Shown piece after piece: positions 25,157-34,392 of a stretch of 64,000 nucleotides of DNA (position 1 is the stretch's first letter; each line of letters begins with the position of its first letter). The position numbers were made by a program, and so were the translations under genes. The notes under the pieces are model-generated. The model saw only the letters and a program-made list of their open reading frames with translations, searched no databases and was not told where the DNA came from. The DNA is from Bacteroidota bacterium (lineage in GTDB: Bacteria > Bacteroidota > Bacteroidia > AKYH767-A > 2013-40CM-41-45): the NCBI GenBank assembly GCA_031385005.1, contig JANNBB010000026.1:35669-99668 (forward strand), read 5' to 3'.

Positions 25157-26482
25157 ATGAAAAAAATCATTACACTTATTTCATTATTAATAATTCTTGT
25201 AACTTTAGACCTCCGGGCACAAACATGGTTAGATATGGCAACAGGCCTTGGTGTATCAACTGAATCGGTAAAAGCAATTGCAGTTGCTCCCAATGGGACT
25301 ATTTATGCTGGCGGAACTTTTACAAATGCTACAAATTCTGCATTAAGTTATCTGGCTAAATGGAGTGGCACGGCTTGGGAAGCTGTTGGAACAGGAGTAA
25401 ACGGACCCGTGTATTCAATTGGAATTAAAACATCTTCTGAGGTATTTGTTGGCGGTGCTTTCACTTCTGCAGGAGGAGTTGCAGTAAACAACGTTGCAAA
25501 ATGGTCAGGATCCACCTGGTCAGACCTTGGCGGAGGTTTTAACGATCAGGTAAGCTGTATTTATGTGAGTTCAGTAACCGGCTCTGTATATGCAGGAGGG
25601 AAATTTTCTCTCTCAGGAACTACGGCTATGAACCACATTTCTAAATTGAATGGCACTACCTGGACTGCACTTGGCTCTGGAATTAGTTCCAGCGTTAATG
25701 CAATCATGGAAAATAATAGTATTCTTTATGCAGGAACTGAAGCATTATCTGCTCCCGTAAAAAAATTCGACGGATCTACATGGAGCGATGTTGCCGGTTT
25801 ATCGAGCGGAAAAGTATATGCTCTCGCATCTTTCAATAGCCAATTGTATGCCGGTGGAGATTTCTCTTCCCCTACTTTTGCAGCAGCACGTTACGATGGC
25901 ACCAATTGGAATACAATTGTTACTACGTTTGCTTCCGGTGATAAAGTATATGCCATGTTATCACGTTTTGGAATATTATACATCGGTGGTAAATTTTCAA
26001 ACCTCGGCATACCGGGATCACAATCGTCTAATGCTGCAAGAAAAATGTCTGCCAACAACCCTATTCAATCGATTACAGCTACTTCAAGTACTATCAATGA
26101 CGAAGTTTATGCAATCGGAAATCAGTCCGGCAAAGTAATTGTTGGCGGAAAATTCACCAACTTCAACCACATTGCCATTACTTCAACGACCATTGGAGTT
26201 GAAGAAATCAGCAGCCTTGTTTCAGGGTATAATTTTTATCCGAATCCGGTTAGTTCAAAAGCAAACCTGACTGTTCAAACAACTGAGAATCTTAAAAATC
26301 CTGCATTAAAAATCTTTGATTTACAATCCAGAATCATTGATAATCTGAACATCGATAGCTCAACCAATGGAAATGAAATTAATTTTTCTATTGATTGCAG
26401 CAGTTTACCAAAAGGAACCTACTATTATCTGCTTACTGATGAAGGCAACAATGTTCTTTCCCGTCAGTTTATCGTAGAATAA
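25157..26482 (+). CDS. Secreted repeat (delta-60/SBBP-like beta-propeller) protein with a T9SS C-terminal sorting domain
   Basis: Signal peptide. About 8 tandem ~50-aa repeats centred on the motif YAGG(T/K/D)F...W. A C-terminal T9SS CTD (YPNPVSSKANLTVQ...KGTYYYLLTDEGNNVLSRQFIVE). Confidence 0.75.
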   Translation: MKKIITLISLLIILVTLDLRAQTWLDMATGLGVSTESVKAIAVAPNGTIYAGGTFTNATNSALSYLAKWSGTAWEAVGTGVNGPVYSIGIKTSSEVFVGGAFTSAGGVAVNNVAKWSGSTWSDLGGGFNDQVSCIYVSSVTGSVYAGGKFSLSGTTAMNHISKLNGTTWTALGSGISSSVNAIMENNSILYAGTEALSAPVKKFDGSTWSDVAGLSSGKVYALASFNSQLYAGGDFSSPTFAAARYDGTNWNTIVTTFASGDKVYAMLSRFGILYIGGKFSNLGIPGSQSSNAARKMSANNPIQSITATSSTINDEVYAIGNQSGKVIVGGKFTNFNHIAITSTTIGVEEISSLVSGYNFYPNPVSSKANLTVQTTENLKNPALKIFDLQSRIIDNLNIDSSTNGNEINFSIDCSSLPKGTYYYLLTDEGNNVLSRQFIVE

Positions 26483-26503
26483 ACATTCAATAAATTATTT
26501 ATA

Positions 26504-26535
26504 GGGGCCGTGTTTATTACATGGCCCTTTTTTTT
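26504..26535 (+). terminator. Rho-independent terminator
   Basis: Stem GGGGCCGTG / CATGGCCC followed by T8. Confidence 0.7.
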
Positions 26536-26610: not shown

Positions 26611-27987
26611 ATGAAGTATGCAATTATTGATATAGAAACTACCGGCAGTAATGCAGGTACCGGTCGCATTACCGAAATCGCCATCTATATACATGACGGT
26701 AAATCTATTGTCGATGAGTTTTGTAGTCTGATTAATCCGGAATGTGAAATTCCTCCATTTATTTCAAAGCTAACCGGAATTACCAATGAAATGGTTGAAA
26801 ATGCGCCAAAATTTTATGAGATAGCCAAACAAATCGTCGACATTACTGAAGACACCATTTTTGTAGCTCACAACGCTACTTTCGATTATAATTTTATCAG
26901 GCAAGAATATAAGTCACTCGGTTATAAATACGATAAAAGTTATTTATGCACCCTTCAGATGAGCAGGCAACTTATTCCCGGACACCCCTCCTACAGTCTT
27001 GGAAAGTTGTGTAGAAATTTGAATATTGAAATCGAAAATCGCCACCGTGCGCATGGCGATGCATTGGCTACGTCCAAACTTTTTGAATTGATTTTAAAAA
27101 GCAGCAATTCCGAAAATTTTCCCGAAGAGTTTATTCGGAACGATTATATGAATCTTCGCTTTCCTCCGGGATTTAACAGAAAAATTATTGAACAACTTCC
27201 TGAAAATTCCGGTGTCTATTATTTCCACGACTCCGCCGGAATTGTACTTTATATTGGGAAAAGCAAAAACATCAAAAAAAGAGTTTTAACTCATTTTAGT
27301 AATAAACAAACCCGTAGAGCAATTGAATTGCGAAATTCAATTTGCGACATAACATTCGAAGAAACAGGAAATGAATTAATCGCCCTCTTACTCGAATCTC
27401 AAGAAATCAAAAATCAAAAACCTTTTTATAACCGTAAACAAAAAGGCTCCTATCAAAATTATCACCTTATCTATTTTTACGATGAGCAGAGATATTTAAA
27501 TCTTGCCATCTCAAAAAAAATAGATGGTGCTGAATTACTTTGCACGTTAAATTCAAACGAAGAAGCTGAGGCGATACTGGAAAAACTCGTTTTGAAATTC
27601 GATCTTTGCAAAAAACATTGCGGAGCGCATGACATTTCACATTCTTGTTTTAGCTATTCCGTAAAACAATGTAAAGGCGCTTGCATCGGAAAAGAATCGC
27701 CTGAAAGCTACAATGAAAGAGTAAAAAAGGCCATTGAGACACAGAAATTCGAAAATCAAAATTTCATGATCATCGGAACAGGTCGAATCGAAAAAGAAAA
27801 ATCAATTGTCCATGTTGAAAAAGGCAAATACATGGGATTCGGTTATTTTGAACCGGAACTCTCCGGCGAAAATCCTGAAATTCTGAAATCTTTTATCAAA
27901 CCCGCAAACGATAACCGCGATGTCCGTCAGATAATCCGTTCATACATAAAAAAACCGGGTACCCAAGCACAGATCATTCATCATTAA
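26611..27987 (+). CDS. DnaQ-like 3'-5' exonuclease domain fused to a GIY-YIG nuclease domain
   Basis: Exo I motif IIDIETTG, Exo II FVAHNATFDYNF and Exo III HRAHGDALAT, then a GIY-YIG motif (GVYYFHDSAGIVLYIGKSKNIKKRVLTHF). Confidence 0.8.
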   Translation: MKYAIIDIETTGSNAGTGRITEIAIYIHDGKSIVDEFCSLINPECEIPPFISKLTGITNEMVENAPKFYEIAKQIVDITEDTIFVAHNATFDYNFIRQEYKSLGYKYDKSYLCTLQMSRQLIPGHPSYSLGKLCRNLNIEIENRHRAHGDALATSKLFELILKSSNSENFPEEFIRNDYMNLRFPPGFNRKIIEQLPENSGVYYFHDSAGIVLYIGKSKNIKKRVLTHFSNKQTRRAIELRNSICDITFEETGNELIALLLESQEIKNQKPFYNRKQKGSYQNYHLIYFYDEQRYLNLAISKKIDGAELLCTLNSNEEAEAILEKLVLKFDLCKKHCGAHDISHSCFSYSVKQCKGACIGKESPESYNERVKKAIETQKFENQNFMIIGTGRIEKEKSIVHVEKGKYMGFGYFEPELSGENPEILKSFIKPANDNRDVRQIIRSYIKKPGTQAQIIHH

Positions 27988-28008
27988 TTCTACTCAATCC
28001 TCCTCGTC

Positions 28009-28581
28009 TTGAAAATCTATTTTATCCAATTTATACTTCTGCTTTCTTATTCCGGTTCAATTGCCCAAAGTTCTATTTTTCAAAACAGTTTACCGGATAT
28101 TGAAAATAAATCATTTTCTTTTTCCACGCTGCAACACAAAAAAGGAACAGTTATTGTTTTTCTATTGAGTGATTGCCCGGCCACTCAGGATTATACACGT
28201 TCGTTAAATATTCTTTCTAAAACCTATCTCTCCAATAACATTTCATTTGTCGGAATATTTCCGGGGAAATTCTCTTCAGACAGCGAACTGCTTGCCTTTC
28301 AGAAAATTTATAAATTAAATTTTCCATTATTAAAAGACAGCGAAATGACTCTGGCCAAATTCTTACAGGCGAAAACAGTACCCTCCTGCTATCTTTTAAA
28401 TGATACAGGCGAGATTGTCTATCAAGGAAGAATTGATGACTGGCTTTTTGCCCTCGGACGTAAAAAGAAAAGCGCTACTCAAAAAGATTTAGAAAATGCA
28501 ATTATCAGTTTAATAAAAAATCAACCCATAAAAATACCGGTAACACAGCCCATTGGATGTATTCTTGAATATGAAGATTAA
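28009..28581 (+). CDS. Thioredoxin-fold (redoxin/TlpA-like) protein with an atypical monothiol Cys-Pro-Ala-Thr motif, secreted
   Basis: Signal peptide. VIVFLLSDCPATQ sits where the WCxxC motif normally lies. Thioredoxin-like topology. The 3' end overlaps the next gene by about 29 bp. Confidence 0.6.
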   Translation: MKIYFIQFILLLSYSGSIAQSSIFQNSLPDIENKSFSFSTLQHKKGTVIVFLLSDCPATQDYTRSLNILSKTYLSNNISFVGIFPGKFSSDSELLAFQKIYKLNFPLLKDSEMTLAKFLQAKTVPSCYLLNDTGEIVYQGRIDDWLFALGRKKKSATQKDLENAIISLIKNQPIKIPVTQPIGCILEYED

Positions 28582-29965
28582 CAGAATTTTCACTTTTCCC
28601 GCTTTTACTATTTTTATTGTCATGAGCATTTTGTTTAGCTCTTGCATAAGAGAAAAGAATTCCAATCCTACTCCTGTTTTCTCCAAAGAAATTGCACCCA
28701 TCTTTTATGAAAATTGCTCTTCCTGTCATCGTCCGGGCTCCGGAGCCCCTTTTAATCTGATCACGTACGAAGACATTGTTAAGAAGATTCATACGGTTCA
28801 ACTTTCCATTAATGAAAGACTGATGCCTCCCTGGCCGGCTGATACTTCTTACTCTCATTTTGTCGGGGAAAAGGTTTTAAGTGAAAATGAAATACATCTT
28901 ATCAATCGCTGGATTGAAGCCGGATTTCCTATCGGAGATACCAATCAAATACCACAGCCTCCGGACTTTGGATTGAATACGGAAAAGAAAAAACCGGATT
29001 TTATTATACGCATGCGTCAACCATTTCTAATCAAAGGTGATAACACAGATAATTTTATCATGCTGAAGATTCCCTATGAATTTCCATCTGATACTTTTAT
29101 ACGGACAATCGAAATTGTTCCGGGAAATAAAAAGCTCGTTCATCATATCAATGCACATCTAATTCAATATTTCGCGGGAGCCAAAAAAGACAACCAAAAA
29201 GGAGTTGCCTATGTAAATACGGAGTTGCATGATAAAATTAGTGCATATCAATTACTTTCGTTACCCAACGACGACGGCTCCTATCCATTGCTCACCCCTT
29301 CGGTCTCCAATTATCTACCGGGTGTTGAAGCGGTATTTTATCCGCCCGGAATCGGCGGACTAAAAGTAAAGAAACAAGGAGCTATCTTGCTCGATAACAT
29401 TCATTATGGGCCGAGTCCTATCGATACATCCGATCAAACAACTTTTAATTTTTATTTCAGTCCGACAGCACCCGAGAGACCACTAAGGGAATTTATTATT
29501 GGAACCAGCGGTGTTTCTCCGATTATTCCGCCCCTTGTGATACCTCCGCATACGGTTAAGAAATTTATTTCGTCGTATCGGGTACCGGAAGACATTTCTC
29601 TTTTAACCATCAATCCACATATGCATTTGCTTGGTATTTTTTTCCAGGCCTATGTTCTCCTGCCAGATGGTGATACTCTCCCATTAATCCGCATTAAAAA
29701 ATGGGATTTTCGATGGCAATATTTTTACACATTTCCGAAAATTTTAAAAATCCCTGCGGGTTCTCTTATTCAAATGGAAGGTCTTTTTGATAACACAGAG
29801 AATAATCCTTTGGTTCCCTTTCATCCACCACGTACCATTTCGGAAAGAGCAGGAAGCATGCGCACAACCGATGAAATGTTTCAATTGATATGCACATACT
29901 TGCCATATAAACCGGGCGATGAAAATATTCGATTAGAAAACAAACAAACAGAAAAAGACGACTAA
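28553..29965 (+). CDS. Lipoprotein with an N-terminal c-type heme-binding motif (CxxCH) fused to a copper type II monooxygenase-like (PHM/DBH-like) domain
   Basis: Lipobox FSSC. A heme-c motif NCSSCHRPG is followed by ...LMPPWPAD, a Planctomycete-type cytochrome c-like layout. Candidate Cu-ligand motifs are LVHHINAH (HH), NPHMHLLG (HxH) and a downstream Met (LIQMEGL). Confidence 0.5.
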   Translation: MDVFLNMKINRIFTFPAFTIFIVMSILFSSCIREKNSNPTPVFSKEIAPIFYENCSSCHRPGSGAPFNLITYEDIVKKIHTVQLSINERLMPPWPADTSYSHFVGEKVLSENEIHLINRWIEAGFPIGDTNQIPQPPDFGLNTEKKKPDFIIRMRQPFLIKGDNTDNFIMLKIPYEFPSDTFIRTIEIVPGNKKLVHHINAHLIQYFAGAKKDNQKGVAYVNTELHDKISAYQLLSLPNDDGSYPLLTPSVSNYLPGVEAVFYPPGIGGLKVKKQGAILLDNIHYGPSPIDTSDQTTFNFYFSPTAPERPLREFIIGTSGVSPIIPPLVIPPHTVKKFISSYRVPEDISLLTINPHMHLLGIFFQAYVLLPDGDTLPLIRIKKWDFRWQYFYTFPKILKIPAGSLIQMEGLFDNTENNPLVPFHPPRTISERAGSMRTTDEMFQLICTYLPYKPGDENIRLENKQTEKDD

Positions 29966-30003
29966 GCTCGCTGTTTAATTTACTCTTCCTACTTCCAGCA
30001 ATC

Positions 30004-30462
30004 ATGAAATCAAAAAAGATCATTATACCTTCAACAGAGAAAGAACTCGAAGCATATTATAAATTACGTTTTGAAGTCTTGCGAAAGCCCTGGGGACAAG
30101 TAGAAAATTCCACCCGAGATGAATGGGAAAACATTTCCATTCATGTCCTGATGCTCGATGAAAATGAAGAAGCAATTGCTGCCGGACGTCTTCAACTGAA
30201 TCCGGGAAATGAAGGCCAGATTCGTTCTATGGCCGTAAAAAAAGAATACAGAGGTCTGGGTCTGGGATCCGAAATCTTATTGTTCCTGGAAGAAAAAGCT
30301 AAAGAAAAAGCACTGACTTCAATTGTTCTGGACGCAAGAGAAAATGCCATCCCGTTTTACAAAAAACATGGGTATGTTTCGACAGGACCTTCATACCTGC
30401 TTTTTAATGAGATTCCACATGAACGCATGGAAAAAATCTTAAAAAATAAATCAGAACGTTAG
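30004..30462 (+). CDS. GNAT family N-acetyltransferase
   Basis: Acetyl-CoA binding motif A (IRSMAVKKEYRGLGLGSEIL). Confidence 0.8.
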   Translation: MKSKKIIIPSTEKELEAYYKLRFEVLRKPWGQVENSTRDEWENISIHVLMLDENEEAIAAGRLQLNPGNEGQIRSMAVKKEYRGLGLGSEILLFLEEKAKEKALTSIVLDARENAIPFYKKHGYVSTGPSYLLFNEIPHERMEKILKNKSER

Positions 30463-32349: not shown

Positions 32350-34392
32350 TTATGAAAGTTGAGAAAGTATCCTTTTAGCTTGTTCATTACTCTTATCTCT
32401 TTTCAAGACTTCCTTCAGATACATTTTAGCATCTTTCTCTCTGCCCAGAAAAAGCATTGCACCTGCTTTGTTTAAAAATGCCTGTACATTATCCGGATCC
32501 AGAGATAATGCTTTATCATACATTTTAAGTGCCGACTGAACATTCTTTTCGGCAGATAAAAGCAAAAATCCCAGACTTACATATGCGCTGCTGTATTTGG
32601 GATTTTCACGGAGAATAAACTCATAATTTCTTTTTGCTTCAGCTATCATTCCCGCATCAAATTGAGCACCGGCCAACTTATTTCTAAAATCGGTAACAAA
32701 TGGTGCAAGCTCTGTTGAATTTTCAAAATAGGAAACTGCTTTGGAATTATTACCGAGGGCTGCATAGGATTCACCGATTCGGTAAGAAGTCCAGGCATGC
32801 TCATTCATCAGGGATTTCTTGTCCAGATTTTCTAAATTGTGATTTTTACTTTCCGCATAGCTCACAACTTTTTTGTAATCATTTTTTAAAAATGCCCAAT
32901 GCACAAGCGAATGAAAATTGCGAAGAATACTGTCAACATTATTATCGACAAAATATTTCTTTGCAGAATCCAGAAATGAAGGATTATCAGAAAATTTTTC
33001 GAAATAGGAAAGAAATGCTTCTCCCTTTGAACGGTTATCAGGAGTTGAATTATTAATACAAATCAATCCGGCAAAATCTTTTATCCGTTTGACTTCCGCT
33101 TGAGTTTTAGGAATGCGAATATAATGATCGCTGGTGATAACATGTGGGATATCAGTTGCACCGCCTTTGGGCATATGACAGCTTATACAATTATCATTTG
33201 AAAGGGCTCTGACTTCCATGGATTCCTTGCAGGGAAGCTGATGAATTTTTGACTTACCGGATTGAGCATTTGCCGGCTGATGACATGAAATACATTTGGA
33301 ATTAAAATAAGAACTACGTGTAACAGTAACACTAACATGTGGATCGTGGCAGGTTATGCAAGTCAATGCATTTTGATAAGGCCGAAGAGATGATTGCTTG
33401 GCATTAATCTCCTCTGCCTTTCTTAGACTCTCTTGGAAACATTTACTCATCTTCAGTCTTTCCGCATGCGAAGCCATAATATGACTATCGTCATCGCCTT
33501 TATAGAGTGGCATGTAAACATCCATCACTTCTTTCAAATGCATGCCGGGCTTAAAGTCAAGAAACGATTTGCCCTCTTTTAAAATGGCATTACCTTGTAT
33601 ATGACACCGCTGACAAACATCCAGTTGTAAGTCGATCGGTAGTTTTGCAGGGTTGACAATCGAATAATCGATTTCCTCCTTAACATCGATTATCTTTCCC
33701 TCCTTTTTTTCGCGAATGTGCAAACTTCCCGGACCGTGACAACGTTCACAATCAATTCCATTAGCCACAAAAGAATATTTATTCTCTGACCCTTGGACCA
33801 TTTTCGGATAGGCATTGTGACAGGTCATGCATTCTAACCCTATTTTTCTTGAGAAACGACTATTATAACCGCCTTCAAATCCCGGAGGTAAATCCCACTT
33901 TTTTTTCTGAGTATAAAACGTTGCCGGCACTTGAAAAACATATCCGTTGACATTCATAAGATGCGAATTAGTATGCTGGCCGGAACCTACTATCCAATCT
34001 ACGTGCTCGGCACGTTTGAATAAAGTATCTCTACCTGAAAGACGGAACTCTAAAACAACTAAAGAATCATTTTTCCAAAAGGGATGATATTGCAGGTTTT
34101 TAAAAGTATCTGAAATAATTGCAATATCAGAAAACTTAGCAGACGACTTACTTTTCGTTGCACGGTCAAACGAAAGTCCCATTCCCGTATGAAGAAATGT
34201 TTCATATTTATCGGAATGACATTCTTTACAGGATAGAATTCCCGCATATTGAACGGTATCATTTAAGGAAGAATATTGCTTTTTGTCATCGGAATCTTCA
34301 TTATGAGAATTGCATGACATCAAATAAACAAGAAAAAAAATAAAACAGGAGCAAAACAAATTTCTTAATTGGCTCCTGTATTTAAATATCAT
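32350..34392 (-). CDS. Multiheme (7 CxxCH) c-type cytochrome lipoprotein with a C-terminal TPR repeat domain
   Basis: Lipobox LMSC. Seven heme-binding motifs: CKECH, CMTCH, CERCH, CQRCH, CITCH, CISCH and CISCH. The C-terminal ~200 aa are TPR-like (YAALGNNSKAVSYF..., AYVSLGFLLL..., AFLNKAGAMLFLG...). Confidence 0.8.
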   Translation of the reverse strand: MIFKYRSQLRNLFCSCFIFFLVYLMSCNSHNEDSDDKKQYSSLNDTVQYAGILSCKECHSDKYETFLHTGMGLSFDRATKSKSSAKFSDIAIISDTFKNLQYHPFWKNDSLVVLEFRLSGRDTLFKRAEHVDWIVGSGQHTNSHLMNVNGYVFQVPATFYTQKKKWDLPPGFEGGYNSRFSRKIGLECMTCHNAYPKMVQGSENKYSFVANGIDCERCHGPGSLHIREKKEGKIIDVKEEIDYSIVNPAKLPIDLQLDVCQRCHIQGNAILKEGKSFLDFKPGMHLKEVMDVYMPLYKGDDDSHIMASHAERLKMSKCFQESLRKAEEINAKQSSLRPYQNALTCITCHDPHVSVTVTRSSYFNSKCISCHQPANAQSGKSKIHQLPCKESMEVRALSNDNCISCHMPKGGATDIPHVITSDHYIRIPKTQAEVKRIKDFAGLICINNSTPDNRSKGEAFLSYFEKFSDNPSFLDSAKKYFVDNNVDSILRNFHSLVHWAFLKNDYKKVVSYAESKNHNLENLDKKSLMNEHAWTSYRIGESYAALGNNSKAVSYFENSTELAPFVTDFRNKLAGAQFDAGMIAEAKRNYEFILRENPKYSSAYVSLGFLLLSAEKNVQSALKMYDKALSLDPDNVQAFLNKAGAMLFLGREKDAKMYLKEVLKRDKSNEQAKRILSQLS

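What the first reader, a model, noticed from the sequence alone, without database searches (positions are those of the whole stretch)
28009..29965. Operon pairing a monothiol thioredoxin-like protein with a heme-c / PHM-like copper monooxygenase fusion lipoprotein
Two overlapping genes (about 29 bp overlap, same strand) encode secreted or lipid-anchored proteins. The first has a thioredoxin fold, but the usual CxxC is replaced by Cys-Pro-Ala-Thr, a monothiol variant. The second carries a lipobox, then a single c-type heme motif (NCSSCHRPG...LMPPW, resembling a Planctomycete-type cytochrome c domain). After that comes a domain with the His signature of copper type II ascorbate-dependent monooxygenases (HH in LVHHINAH; HxH in NPHMHLLG; a downstream Met in LIQMEGL). 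A heme c electron-entry module fused to a PHM/DBH-like copper hydroxylase, partnered with a thiol-redox protein, would be a self-contained periplasmic oxidative system. I do not recognise this architecture as a characterised enzyme. Substrate and function are unknown.
Basis: partly seen in the sequence, partly recalled or inferred. Interest (0 to 1): 0.65.

Follow-up and report, generated by a model that had tools for sequence, protein, structure and literature searches.

The report
Bacterial heme-fed PHM-like copper monooxygenase pair
Two adjacent genes encode a secreted thioredoxin-fold protein and a lipoprotein that joins a one-heme cytochrome c to a copper enzyme of the type animals use to make peptide hormones and noradrenaline, and this belongs to a very large bacterial family that nobody appears to have characterised.

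Summary

All six PHM copper ligands have collinear equivalents: H197/H198/H284 for CuH and H356/H358/M442 for CuM. These are essentially invariant in 150 diverse relatives.

ORF A (28009-28581) belongs to the uncharacterised PRX_like1 thioredoxin-fold group (PDB 2CVB, 3U5R, 2YWI). It is not simply monothiol. C56 and the C-terminal C184 are invariant, and the second CxxC cysteine comes and goes among orthologs.

The two genes are adjacent in 45 of 81 related loci, including 8 with no other shared synteny. They are fused into one polypeptide in distant lineages. The family has about 15,700 cluster representatives, all named only as hypothetical or generic proteins.

The most likely mechanism is that heme c replaces ascorbate as electron donor to CuH, with the thioredoxin-like partner as an upstream thiol redox partner. 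The substrate is unknown. I rate it a new variant of a known kind, interest about 0.6.

The parts
28009..28581 (+). ORF A: secreted thioredoxin-fold protein of the PRX_like1 type (190 aa, TTG start, N-terminal signal peptide)
   Evidence: Pfam AhpC-TSA 8e-10 and Redoxin 3.3e-6. Full-length matches to PDB 2cvb (1.4e-9), 3u5r (2e-8) and 2ywi (8.8e-8), which include the CP motif and the C-terminal IGC. Found in 45 orthologous loci.
28174..28185 (+). C56-P-A-T59, at the position of the thioredoxin CxxC motif. C56 and P57 are invariant. The fourth residue varies among orthologs.
   Evidence: Motif counts in the window ORF plus 44 orthologs: CPAC 18, CPAS 15, CPLS 4, CPLC 3, CPSC 2, CPAT 1, CPVC 1, CPFC 1.
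28558..28560 (+). C184 in the C-terminal T-x3-G-C motif. This is the invariant second cysteine of ORF A and the probable redox partner of C56.
   Evidence: T179, G183 and C184 are conserved in 44-45 of 45. The motif is also conserved in PDB homologs and in the fused proteins P0155, P0294 and P0176.
28571..28645 (+). Probable true start of ORF B (ATG 28571), followed by a lipoprotein signal peptide ending at lipobox Cys31. The start overlaps the ORF A stop by 11 bp.
   Evidence: Sequence. C31 is invariant in 33 of 33 close homologs.
28676..28942 (+). Monoheme class-I cytochrome c domain (about residues 42-130), with C55xxC58H59 (28715-28729) and axial Met91 in MPPW (28823-28825)
28985..29512 (+). 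PHM-like N-terminal jelly-roll domain with predicted CuH ligands H197/H198 (29141-29146) and H284 (29402-29404)
   Evidence: hhalign to rat PHM aligns LVHH with TVH107H108 and NIHYGP with QVH172YGD. Pfam Cu2_monooxygen matches in 20 of 90 relatives. Fold matches. Conservation.
29513..29917 (+). PHM-like C-terminal jelly-roll domain with predicted CuM ligands H356/H358 (29618-29626) and M442 (29876-29878)
   Evidence: hhalign aligns NPHMHLLG with RVH242TH244HLG and TTDEM with SSDEM314. Cu2_monoox_C matches in 30 of 33 close and 63 of 90 distant relatives. Conservation.

Best explanation
ORF B is a periplasm-facing lipoprotein enzyme. An N-terminal monoheme c-type cytochrome domain is fused to a PHM/DBH-type non-coupled binuclear copper monooxygenase.

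Shown here: the domain architecture, the fold, and the presence and conservation of a CxxCH...Met heme site and of residues equivalent to all six PHM copper ligands (CuH: H197, H198, H284; CuM: H356, H358, M442).

Inferred: the heme takes single electrons from a periplasmic donor and passes them to CuH. It thereby replaces ascorbate, which the eukaryotic enzymes use. CuH reduces CuM, where O2 is activated to hydroxylate a C-H bond of a substrate that remains unknown. That substrate is not a peptidyl-glycine, because the PHM carboxylate clamp R240/Y318 is N354/I446 here.

ORF A is a secreted PRX_like1-type thioredoxin-fold protein with an invariant C56/C184 pair. It is a dedicated partner of ORF B (shown by adjacency and by natural fusions). 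I think its most likely role is the upstream thiol-based reductant, recharged through the periplasmic thiol-reducing pathway. The electron path would then be dithiol -> heme c -> CuH -> CuM-O2, which is the same order as the domains in the fused proteins.

My confidence by step: architecture and cofactor sites about 0.85; O2-dependent monooxygenase chemistry about 0.6; thioredoxin-like protein as electron donor about 0.3.
For: - Ligand equivalence: shown by hhalign against the PDB-verified PHM sequence.
- Conservation: heme and copper ligands are near-invariant across 150 diverse representatives.
- Pfam: Cu2_monoox_C and Cu2_monooxygen are matched by relatives, several above gathering score.
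- Localisation: invariant lipobox Cys in ORF B and a signal peptide on ORF A.
- Partnership: the thioredoxin-like gene is immediately upstream on the same strand in 45 of 81 loci, including 8 loci with no other shared synteny.
- Fusions: Trx-like + cytochrome c + PHM-like fusions are P0155 (on at least 24 contigs, GC 28%), P0294 and P0176. Locus L085 (GC 58%) carries several adjacent fusion genes.
- ORF A cysteines: at least two are always kept, C56 and C184 being invariant.
Against: - The window protein itself is below Pfam thresholds.
- The sequence-only profile comparison with PHM is weak (E 0.026 and 0.086), so ligand equivalence rests on motif collinearity plus the fold match.
- No model coordinates were available, so neither the ligand geometry nor the heme-to-CuH distance was measured.
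- About 33 of 81 loci have no thioredoxin-like neighbour, and most family members, including T9SS-secreted ones, lack a fused thioredoxin domain. The partner is therefore not universally required.
- PRX_like1 proteins also exist without signal peptides in organisms where no such enzyme is implied.
- Nothing here identifies a substrate or the direction of electron flow.
Confidence: 0.55

Rival explanations
1. The thioredoxin-like protein is a maturation factor rather than a catalytic partner. It would be either a ResA/CcmG-like reductase that keeps the apocytochrome CxxCH cysteines reduced for heme attachment, or a Sco-like Cu(I) chaperone that uses C56/C184 to load the copper sites.
For: Weak NCBIfam similarity to StoA (6.5e-6) and ResA (1.4e-4). 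ResA and StoA structures appear among the PDB hits. The only conserved cysteines in ORF B are the lipobox Cys and the CxxCH pair, so CxxCH is the only disulfide a reductase could act on. Two invariant cysteines could coordinate Cu(I).
Against: Stoichiometric fusion of a single-use maturation factor to its client, repeated in several lineages and twice within P0176, would be unusual. Other c-type cytochromes nearby, such as 32350-34392, have no dedicated copy. The invariant columns of ORF A contain no His or Met of the kind that completes Sco-type copper sites. The best matches are PRX_like1 structures, not ResA.
Confidence: 0.15
2. The system runs in the opposite direction, as a thiol oxidase. 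The thioredoxin-like protein, or client thiols it carries, is oxidised at the copper centre. Electrons leave to O2 or pass through the heme to the respiratory chain. This would be a periplasmic disulfide-generating module.
For: A Trx-fold protein with a conserved cysteine pair is fused or adjacent to a heme-and-copper redox protein. Copper readily oxidises thiols, and thiol-to-cytochrome-c relays are known from the mitochondrial Mia40/Erv1 pathway (background knowledge).
Against: The complete PHM ligand set, including the CuM methionine, is conserved. That set is characteristic of O2 activation for C-H hydroxylation rather than plain electron transfer. Many family members have no thioredoxin domain or neighbour.
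Confidence: 0.12
3. The thioredoxin-like protein acts as a peroxiredoxin-like scavenger. It removes H2O2 or hydroperoxide released by uncoupled turnover at CuM, and so protects the heme and the Met ligand.
For: Pfam AhpC-TSA and weak GSHPx similarity. The family is classified as peroxiredoxin-like, and a C-terminal cysteine is discussed as a possible resolving cysteine for 2YWI (PMC3091736; PMC3514251).
Against: By my recollection of the CDD description of PRX_like1 (cd02969), the conserved cysteine aligns with the first Trx CxxC position, not with the peroxidatic cysteine. The PxxxT/SxxC peroxiredoxin motif is absent from the ORF A sequence. A scavenger would not need to be fused next to the heme domain.
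Confidence: 0.12
4. The two genes are neighbours only through inherited gene order and have no functional link.
For: In 37 of the 45 loci with the pair, the whole neighbourhood (WD40, Por-tail protein, exonuclease, GNAT, two-component system, multiheme cytochrome) is syntenic. About 33 loci lack the pair.
Against: Eight loci keep the pair after all other synteny is lost. Independent gene fusions exist in organisms of 28%, 44% and 58% GC.
Confidence: 0.04
5. The PHM-like double jelly-roll is a non-catalytic binding module, like a PNGase F or CBM domain, attached to an electron-transfer cytochrome.
Against: All six copper ligand positions are near-invariant over a family of thousands. PHM and DBH score far above PNGase F.
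Confidence: 0.02

Closest known systems
Peptidylglycine alpha-hydroxylating monooxygenase (PHM, catalytic core of PAM) and dopamine beta-hydroxylase / tyramine beta-monooxygenase (Pfam Cu2_monooxygen + Cu2_monoox_C)
   Different: - Sequence identity is only 12-16%.
- The protein is a bacterial lipoprotein.
- An N-terminal c-type cytochrome occupies the position of the DOMON domain of DBH and presumably replaces ascorbate as donor.
- The PHM substrate-carboxylate residues R240 and Y318 are N354 and I446 here, so the substrate differs.
- The conserved PHM/DBH disulfide cysteines are absent.
- A thioredoxin-like partner is present.
PRX_like1 thioredoxin-fold proteins (CDD cd02969; structural-genomics entries 2CVB/2YWO from Thermus thermophilus, 2YWI from Geobacillus kaustophilus, 3U5R)
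   Same: Full-length similarity, including the single conserved Cys-Pro at the first CxxC position, the Y-x-G-x-I/V-D-D segment and the C-terminal I-G-C motif.
   Different: ORF A carries a signal peptide and is periplasmic. It is paired or fused with a heme-copper enzyme. Its clade toggles a second cysteine between the CxxC position and the residue two after the conserved Pro125 (which I take to be the thioredoxin cis-proline). The PDB homologs are of unknown function and appear to be cytoplasmic.
Cellobiose dehydrogenase cytochrome domain feeding LPMO copper monooxygenases (functional analogy only)
   Same: A heme domain supplies single electrons to a copper monooxygenase that acts outside the cytoplasm. 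Many relatives of ORF B are T9SS-secreted and carry PKD or Ig modules, as enzymes that attack polymers often do.
   Different: The folds and copper sites are unrelated (LPMO uses a mononuclear histidine brace). CDH uses heme b and a flavin domain. There is no evidence here for a polysaccharide substrate.
ResA/TlpA/StoA periplasmic thiol-disulfide oxidoreductases
   Same: A secreted thioredoxin fold with weak sequence similarity and an association with a c-type cytochrome.
   Different: The canonical CxxC is not conserved. The invariant second cysteine is C-terminal. Scores are far below the NCBIfam cut-offs (26 against 210 bits).

Membership tests
Copper type II ascorbate-dependent monooxygenases (PHM/DBH; Pfam PF01082 + PF03712) | Two-domain jelly-roll catalytic core | tested here: met
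Copper type II ascorbate-dependent monooxygenases (PHM/DBH; Pfam PF01082 + PF03712) | CuH ligands: HH plus a third His (PHM H107, H108, H172) | tested here: met
   H197/H198 and H284 align to them. They are invariant in A1 and present in 144-146 of 145-147 representatives. The three-dimensional geometry was not measured.
Copper type II ascorbate-dependent monooxygenases (PHM/DBH; Pfam PF01082 + PF03712) | CuM ligands: HxH plus Met (PHM H242, H244, M314) | tested here: met
   H356/H358 and M442 align to them. They are present in 148/148 and 144/145 representatives.
Copper type II ascorbate-dependent monooxygenases (PHM/DBH; Pfam PF01082 + PF03712) | Significant match to the Pfam family models | tested here: inconclusive
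   The window protein scores 13.8 bits against a cut-off of 23. Relatives pass: Cu2_monoox_C 24-34 bits and Cu2_monooxygen 34 bits, with best E-values of 1.4e-11 and 5.6e-12.
Copper type II ascorbate-dependent monooxygenases (PHM/DBH; Pfam PF01082 + PF03712) | Ascorbate as the electron donor | not testable with these tools
   The fused heme c domain suggests a different donor. This is inference only.
PHM proper (peptidylglycine substrate) | Carboxylate-binding R240 and Y318, with N316 contacting the peptide | tested here: not met
   In the hhalign alignment, R240 corresponds to N354, Y318 to I446 and N316 to Q444. The residue roles in PHM are from background knowledge.
Class I c-type cytochrome | CxxCH heme-attachment motif, a distal Met ligand and an alpha-helical fold | tested here: met
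   PSCyt1 is not listed at E <= 1 for the window protein, nor among the families matched by 33 close or 90 distant relatives.
PRX_like1 (cd02969) thioredoxin-fold proteins | Trx/AhpC-TSA fold, a single conserved Cys at the first CxxC position and a conserved C-terminal Cys | tested here: met
   Pfam AhpC-TSA 8e-10. Full-length alignment to 2cvb, 3u5r and 2ywi. C56 and C184 are invariant in 45 of 45. The CDD model itself is not available in these tools.
Typical peroxiredoxins | PxxxT/SxxC peroxidatic motif with a conserved Arg | tested here: not met
   The sequence around C56 is VFLLSDCPATQ, with no PxxxT/S upstream. NCBIfam thiol peroxidase scores 14.7 bits against a cut-off of 140.
Bacterial lipoprotein | Signal peptide ending in a lipobox with an invariant Cys | tested here: met
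   MKINRIFTFPAFTIFIVMSILFSS-C31. The Cys is invariant in 33 of 33. No dedicated signal-peptide predictor was available.

The most novel reading that the evidence does not exclude
These genes represent a very large, unstudied class of bacterial extracytoplasmic copper monooxygenases (about 15,700 clusters at 50% identity). In this class, ascorbate is replaced by a built-in protein electron wire: thioredoxin-fold dithiol -> heme c -> CuH -> CuM. This would let cells drive PHM-type C-H hydroxylation in the periplasm or on the cell surface from the cellular thiol or respiratory pool. The T9SS-secreted paralogs with PKD or Ig modules might attack extracellular polymers or peptides.
Probability: 0.3. 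Interest if true: 0.8.

Novelty: new variant of a known kind. Interest (0 to 1): 0.6.

Why it matters
PHM and DBH-type enzymes are treated as eukaryotic, ascorbate-dependent enzymes. [quoted passage not shown]

If this reading is right, there is a huge bacterial branch with the complete copper ligand set and its own electron supply: a fused heme c, often with a thioredoxin-fold module. Three consequences follow:
- It would give copper-enzyme chemists a bacterially expressible model of the non-coupled binuclear site with a defined protein donor.
- It would assign a first functional context to the orphan PRX_like1 family, which has three solved structures and no known function.
- It would point to unknown oxidative chemistry in the periplasm and on the surface of Bacteroidota and high-GC relatives.

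The substrate is the open question, and it is now directly testable.

Tried and rejected
1. Direct sequence search of ORF B against PDB found nothing useful, either as a single sequence or as the A1 profile. The only hit was a spurious SusD match at E 1.2. The fold search was needed.
2. Locus L017 first looked like an in-frame Trx-cytochrome-PHM fusion in my ORF script. Translation shows a stop after GCIIE, so it is not a fusion.
3. The afdb50 fold library was unavailable.
4. P0001, the exact window protein, is not on record in the contig index, so the source contig could not be retrieved.
5. Seven literature searches found no paper on a bacterial cytochrome c-PHM-like or PRX_like1-PHM-like system. 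This covers only the held open-access library.
6. In loci without the thioredoxin-like gene, I looked for a substitute redox partner. The neighbours are unrelated (NusG, LuxC-like, metallophosphoesterase, FAD protein), apart from a conserved small basic lipoprotein of unknown meaning.
7. Sigma-70 promoter scans were no better than shuffled sequence and are not appropriate for Bacteroidota.
8. I considered and rejected M407 and M436 as the CuM methionine, and H202 as a general ligand. None is conserved outside the subfamily.
9. Copper-site geometry could not be checked, because model coordinates are not exposed.
Full report
**Observation**

The six-frame ORF list shows ORF A at 28009-28581 (+, 190 aa, TTG start) and ORF B at 28553-29965 (+, 470 aa, TTG start).

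Reading the DNA shows an ATG at 28571 within ORF B, giving MKINRIFTF.... This is the more plausible start. It matches where most homologs begin and gives an 11-nt overlap, ATGAAGATTAA, with the ORF A stop. The residues upstream of it, MDVFLN, are simply the other reading frame of the conserved ORF A C-terminus.

ORF A also starts at TTG. That explains why some pipelines call only a 78-aa fragment of it (P0308 and P0309).

**What ORF B is**

Pfam gives only sub-threshold matches for the window protein: Cytochrome_CBB3 at 0.0069 and Cu2_monoox_C at 0.04. NCBIfam gives nothing. Sequence searches of PDB give nothing useful.

A homology search found 2,993 relatives at E <= 1e-3, almost all 'hypothetical protein' from Bacteroidota MAGs. 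In an alignment of 33 of them (A1, 55-81% identity), these residues are invariant: C31, C58, H59, M91-P-P, H197, H198, H202, H284, H356-M-H358, M436 and M442.

An AlphaFold model built from A1 has mean pLDDT 79 and pTM 0.71.
- Foldseek against PDB returns PHM and human DBH as the top 31 hits. The best is 3mll at 6.5e-13, with a TM-score of 0.61 normalised to the target. After these, only viral double jelly-roll capsids appear, at E > 1e-5.

**Ligand mapping**

It matched 4e4z and 1sdw over 312 residues, and I corrected four N-terminal residues from the printed alignment.

hhalign of A1 against that sequence gives these equivalences:
- NPH356-M-H358-LLG aligns to RVH242-T-H244-HLG, and TTDEM442 aligns to SSDEM314 (E 0.026).
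- For the N-terminal domain, LVH197H198 aligns to TVH107H108, and NIH284YGP aligns to QVH172YGD (E 0.086).

These sequence scores are weak on their own. However, the alignments are collinear with the strong fold match and hit all six PHM copper ligands.

The same alignment puts N354, Q444 and I446 at PHM R240, N316 and Y318. The peptidyl-glycine carboxylate clamp is therefore absent.

**Family size and conservation**

An exhaustive profile search of 1.84 billion cluster representatives gave 15,700 proteins at E <= 1e-3, 9,251 at E <= 1e-10 and 2,618 at E <= 1e-30.

I aligned the best 150 (30-53% identity) to the profile. At non-gap positions:

| Site | Conserved |
|---|---|
| CxxCH | 139-140 of 140 |
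| M91 | 144/144 |
| H197 | 145/145 |
| H198 | 144/145 |
| H284 | 146/147 |
| H356 and H358 | 148/148 |
| E441 | 145/145 |
| M442 | 144/145 |

Of 90 of these scanned with Pfam:
- 63 match Cu2_monoox_C (best 1.4e-11)
- 20 match Cu2_monooxygen (best 5.6e-12)
- 32 carry a T9SS C-terminal sorting domain
- a few carry PKD, Ig, EF-hand or Kunitz modules

**What ORF A is**

Pfam gives AhpC-TSA at 8e-10 and Redoxin at 3.3e-6. The best PDB relatives are three structural-genomics proteins: 2cvb (1.4e-9), 3u5r (2e-8) and 2ywi (8.8e-8). They align over the full length, including the Cys-Pro at the first CxxC position and a C-terminal I-G-C motif.

From memory, these belong to CDD PRX_like1 (cd02969). The literature held here calls the structure and mechanism of that subfamily unclear (PMC3514251). 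It also notes a C-terminal cysteine in 2ywi as a possible resolving cysteine (PMC3091736).

Across the window ORF A and 44 orthologs extracted from related loci, the motif counts are CPAC 18, CPAS 15, CPLS 4, CPLC 3, CPSC 2, CPAT 1, CPVC 1 and CPFC 1. C56, P57, P125 (which I take to be the thioredoxin cis-proline), T179, G183 and C184 are conserved in 44-45 of 45.

A cysteine at position 127, two residues after P125, occurs in 12 of the 16 CPAS/CPAT proteins, including the window protein. It occurs in none of those that keep CxxC.

So the protein is not simply monothiol. C56/C184 is the constant pair, and a third thiol near C56 moves about.

**Are the two genes linked?**

A genome scan found at least 563 species with a relative, and the 80 best were all Bacteroidota MAGs.

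The thioredoxin-like gene lies immediately upstream on the same strand in 45 of 81 loci. The spacing from its stop to the start of the ORF B match runs from -31 to +154 nt, apart from one mis-extended ORF in L029.
- In 37 of those loci the whole neighbourhood is syntenic, which says little on its own.
- In 8 loci (L042, L046, L059, L060, L063, L068, L070, L078) only the pair is retained.
- About 33 loci (52-56% identity to ORF B) lack the thioredoxin-like gene and have unrelated neighbours.

Natural fusions are the decisive evidence:
- P0155 (627 aa) joins a Trx-like domain to cytochrome c and the PHM-like core. It is seen on at least 24 contigs, including TARA ocean scaffolds, at GC 28%.
- P0294 (600 aa) has the same architecture.
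- P0176 (1,251 aa) has two complete modules separated by predicted membrane segments.
- L085 (GC 58%) also carries a 674-aa single-module fusion gene, and the next gene begins with the same thioredoxin-like domain but runs off the end of the locus.

In all fusions the thioredoxin domain is of the same type (CPxS/A plus a C-terminal GC), and the order is Trx-like, then cytochrome c, then the CuH domain, then the CuM domain. A suspected fusion in L017 proved false.

**Mechanism**

Shown here: the architecture, the cofactor motifs, the fold and the evolutionary coupling.

Inferred:
1. The heme c domain is the one-electron entry point to CuH. It sits at the N-terminus, where DBH has its DOMON domain, and it substitutes for ascorbate.
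2. CuM activates O2 and hydroxylates a C-H bond of an unknown substrate that is not a peptidyl-glycine.
3. ORF A is a thiol redox partner. I favour the role of upstream reductant, because the domain order of the fusions mirrors that electron path and at least two cysteines are always kept.

The evidence does not exclude three other roles for ORF A: maturation factor or copper chaperone, substrate of a thiol-oxidase reaction, or peroxide scavenger. That many relatives lack any thioredoxin module shows the core enzyme can work with other donors.

**Context**

The other genes around the pair look unrelated to it: a WD40 protein, a T9SS-tailed beta-propeller protein, an RNase_T/GIY-YIG exonuclease, a GNAT acetyltransferase and a two-component system. 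The one exception of possible relevance is a multiheme cytochrome c with TPR repeats at 32350-34392 (-).

A terminator-like hairpin lies at 26503-26529. None separates ORF A and ORF B from the exonuclease or GNAT genes.

**Comparison and novelty**

The enzyme works like PHM and DBH. By fold and ligand set it is a member of the copper type II monooxygenase superfamily. It is not PHM proper, because the substrate-binding residues are not conserved, and it differs in electron supply and cellular location.

Source annotations are only 'hypothetical protein', 'mono/diheme cytochrome c family protein' or 'thiol-disulfide isomerase'. NCBIfam has no model for it. Seven literature searches found no description of it. 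One paper explicitly treats PHM as the eukaryotic member of its clan (PMC8812541).

I therefore rate it a new variant of a known kind. It is common in databases but uncharacterised. Interest is about 0.6.

Noticed in passing
L044 4624-4941(-), L054 4456-4767(-), L072 4463-4777(-), L058 4624-4923(-) and about 20 further loci: In most related loci that lack the thioredoxin-like gene, a small (about 75-105 aa), very basic predicted lipoprotein lies directly upstream of the cytochrome c-PHM-like gene on the opposite strand. Its motif is SC(R/K)SK.P.NPYL..K.KPS. It has no Pfam match. It is absent from the window and from loci that carry the thioredoxin-like gene.
   Followed up: partly
window 28387-28389 (C127 of ORF A) and orthologs in L002-L008, L012, L016, L031, L081: A cysteine two residues after the conserved Pro125 (taken to be the thioredoxin cis-proline) occurs in 12 of 16 orthologs whose CxxC has become CPAS/T. 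It occurs in none of the orthologs that keep CxxC. This suggests a relocated second thiol.
   Followed up: partly
relatives P0180, P0225, P0227, P0206, P0160, P0198; 32 of 90 representatives: About a third of the diverse relatives carry a T9SS C-terminal sorting domain. Some also carry PKD, Ig, EF-hand or Kunitz modules. Many family members are therefore exported to the cell surface rather than lipid-anchored in the periplasm.
   Followed up: partly
L085 4171-7926, 11284-13308, 13308-13926: A 58%-GC contig carries several adjacent genes with the thioredoxin-like module. One is a 1,251-aa protein with two complete Trx-cytochrome c-PHM-like modules separated by predicted membrane segments, and one is a 674-aa single-module fusion. 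The next gene starts with the same thioredoxin-like domain but runs off the locus.
   Followed up: partly
window 32350-34392 (-): A 680-aa multiheme c-type cytochrome (several CxxCH motifs; MtrC/MtrF-like, c7, c3 and c554 Pfam matches) with C-terminal TPR repeats. It lies 2.4 kb downstream on the opposite strand and is syntenic in 24 related loci. It could be a periplasmic electron carrier, but nothing links it to the pair.
   Followed up: no
window 28009 and 28553-28573: Both genes have non-ATG first start codons. Public gene calls give a 78-aa truncated ORF A (starting at Met113) and a 470-aa ORF B extended six residues upstream of the probable ATG.
   Followed up: yes
window 26503-26529 (+): A strong terminator-like hairpin (11 pairs followed by a T-run) sits just after the T9SS-tailed beta-propeller gene (25157-26482). 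From 26611 to 30462 there are four co-directional genes (exonuclease/GIY-YIG, ORF A, ORF B, GNAT). No terminator-like site lies in the short gaps between these genes; the only plus-strand candidates fall inside coding sequence.
   Followed up: no
window 26611-27987 (+): An RNase_T exonuclease (epsilon-like) is fused to a GIY-YIG nuclease domain. It ends 21 nt before ORF A and is conserved in that position in 33 loci.
   Followed up: no
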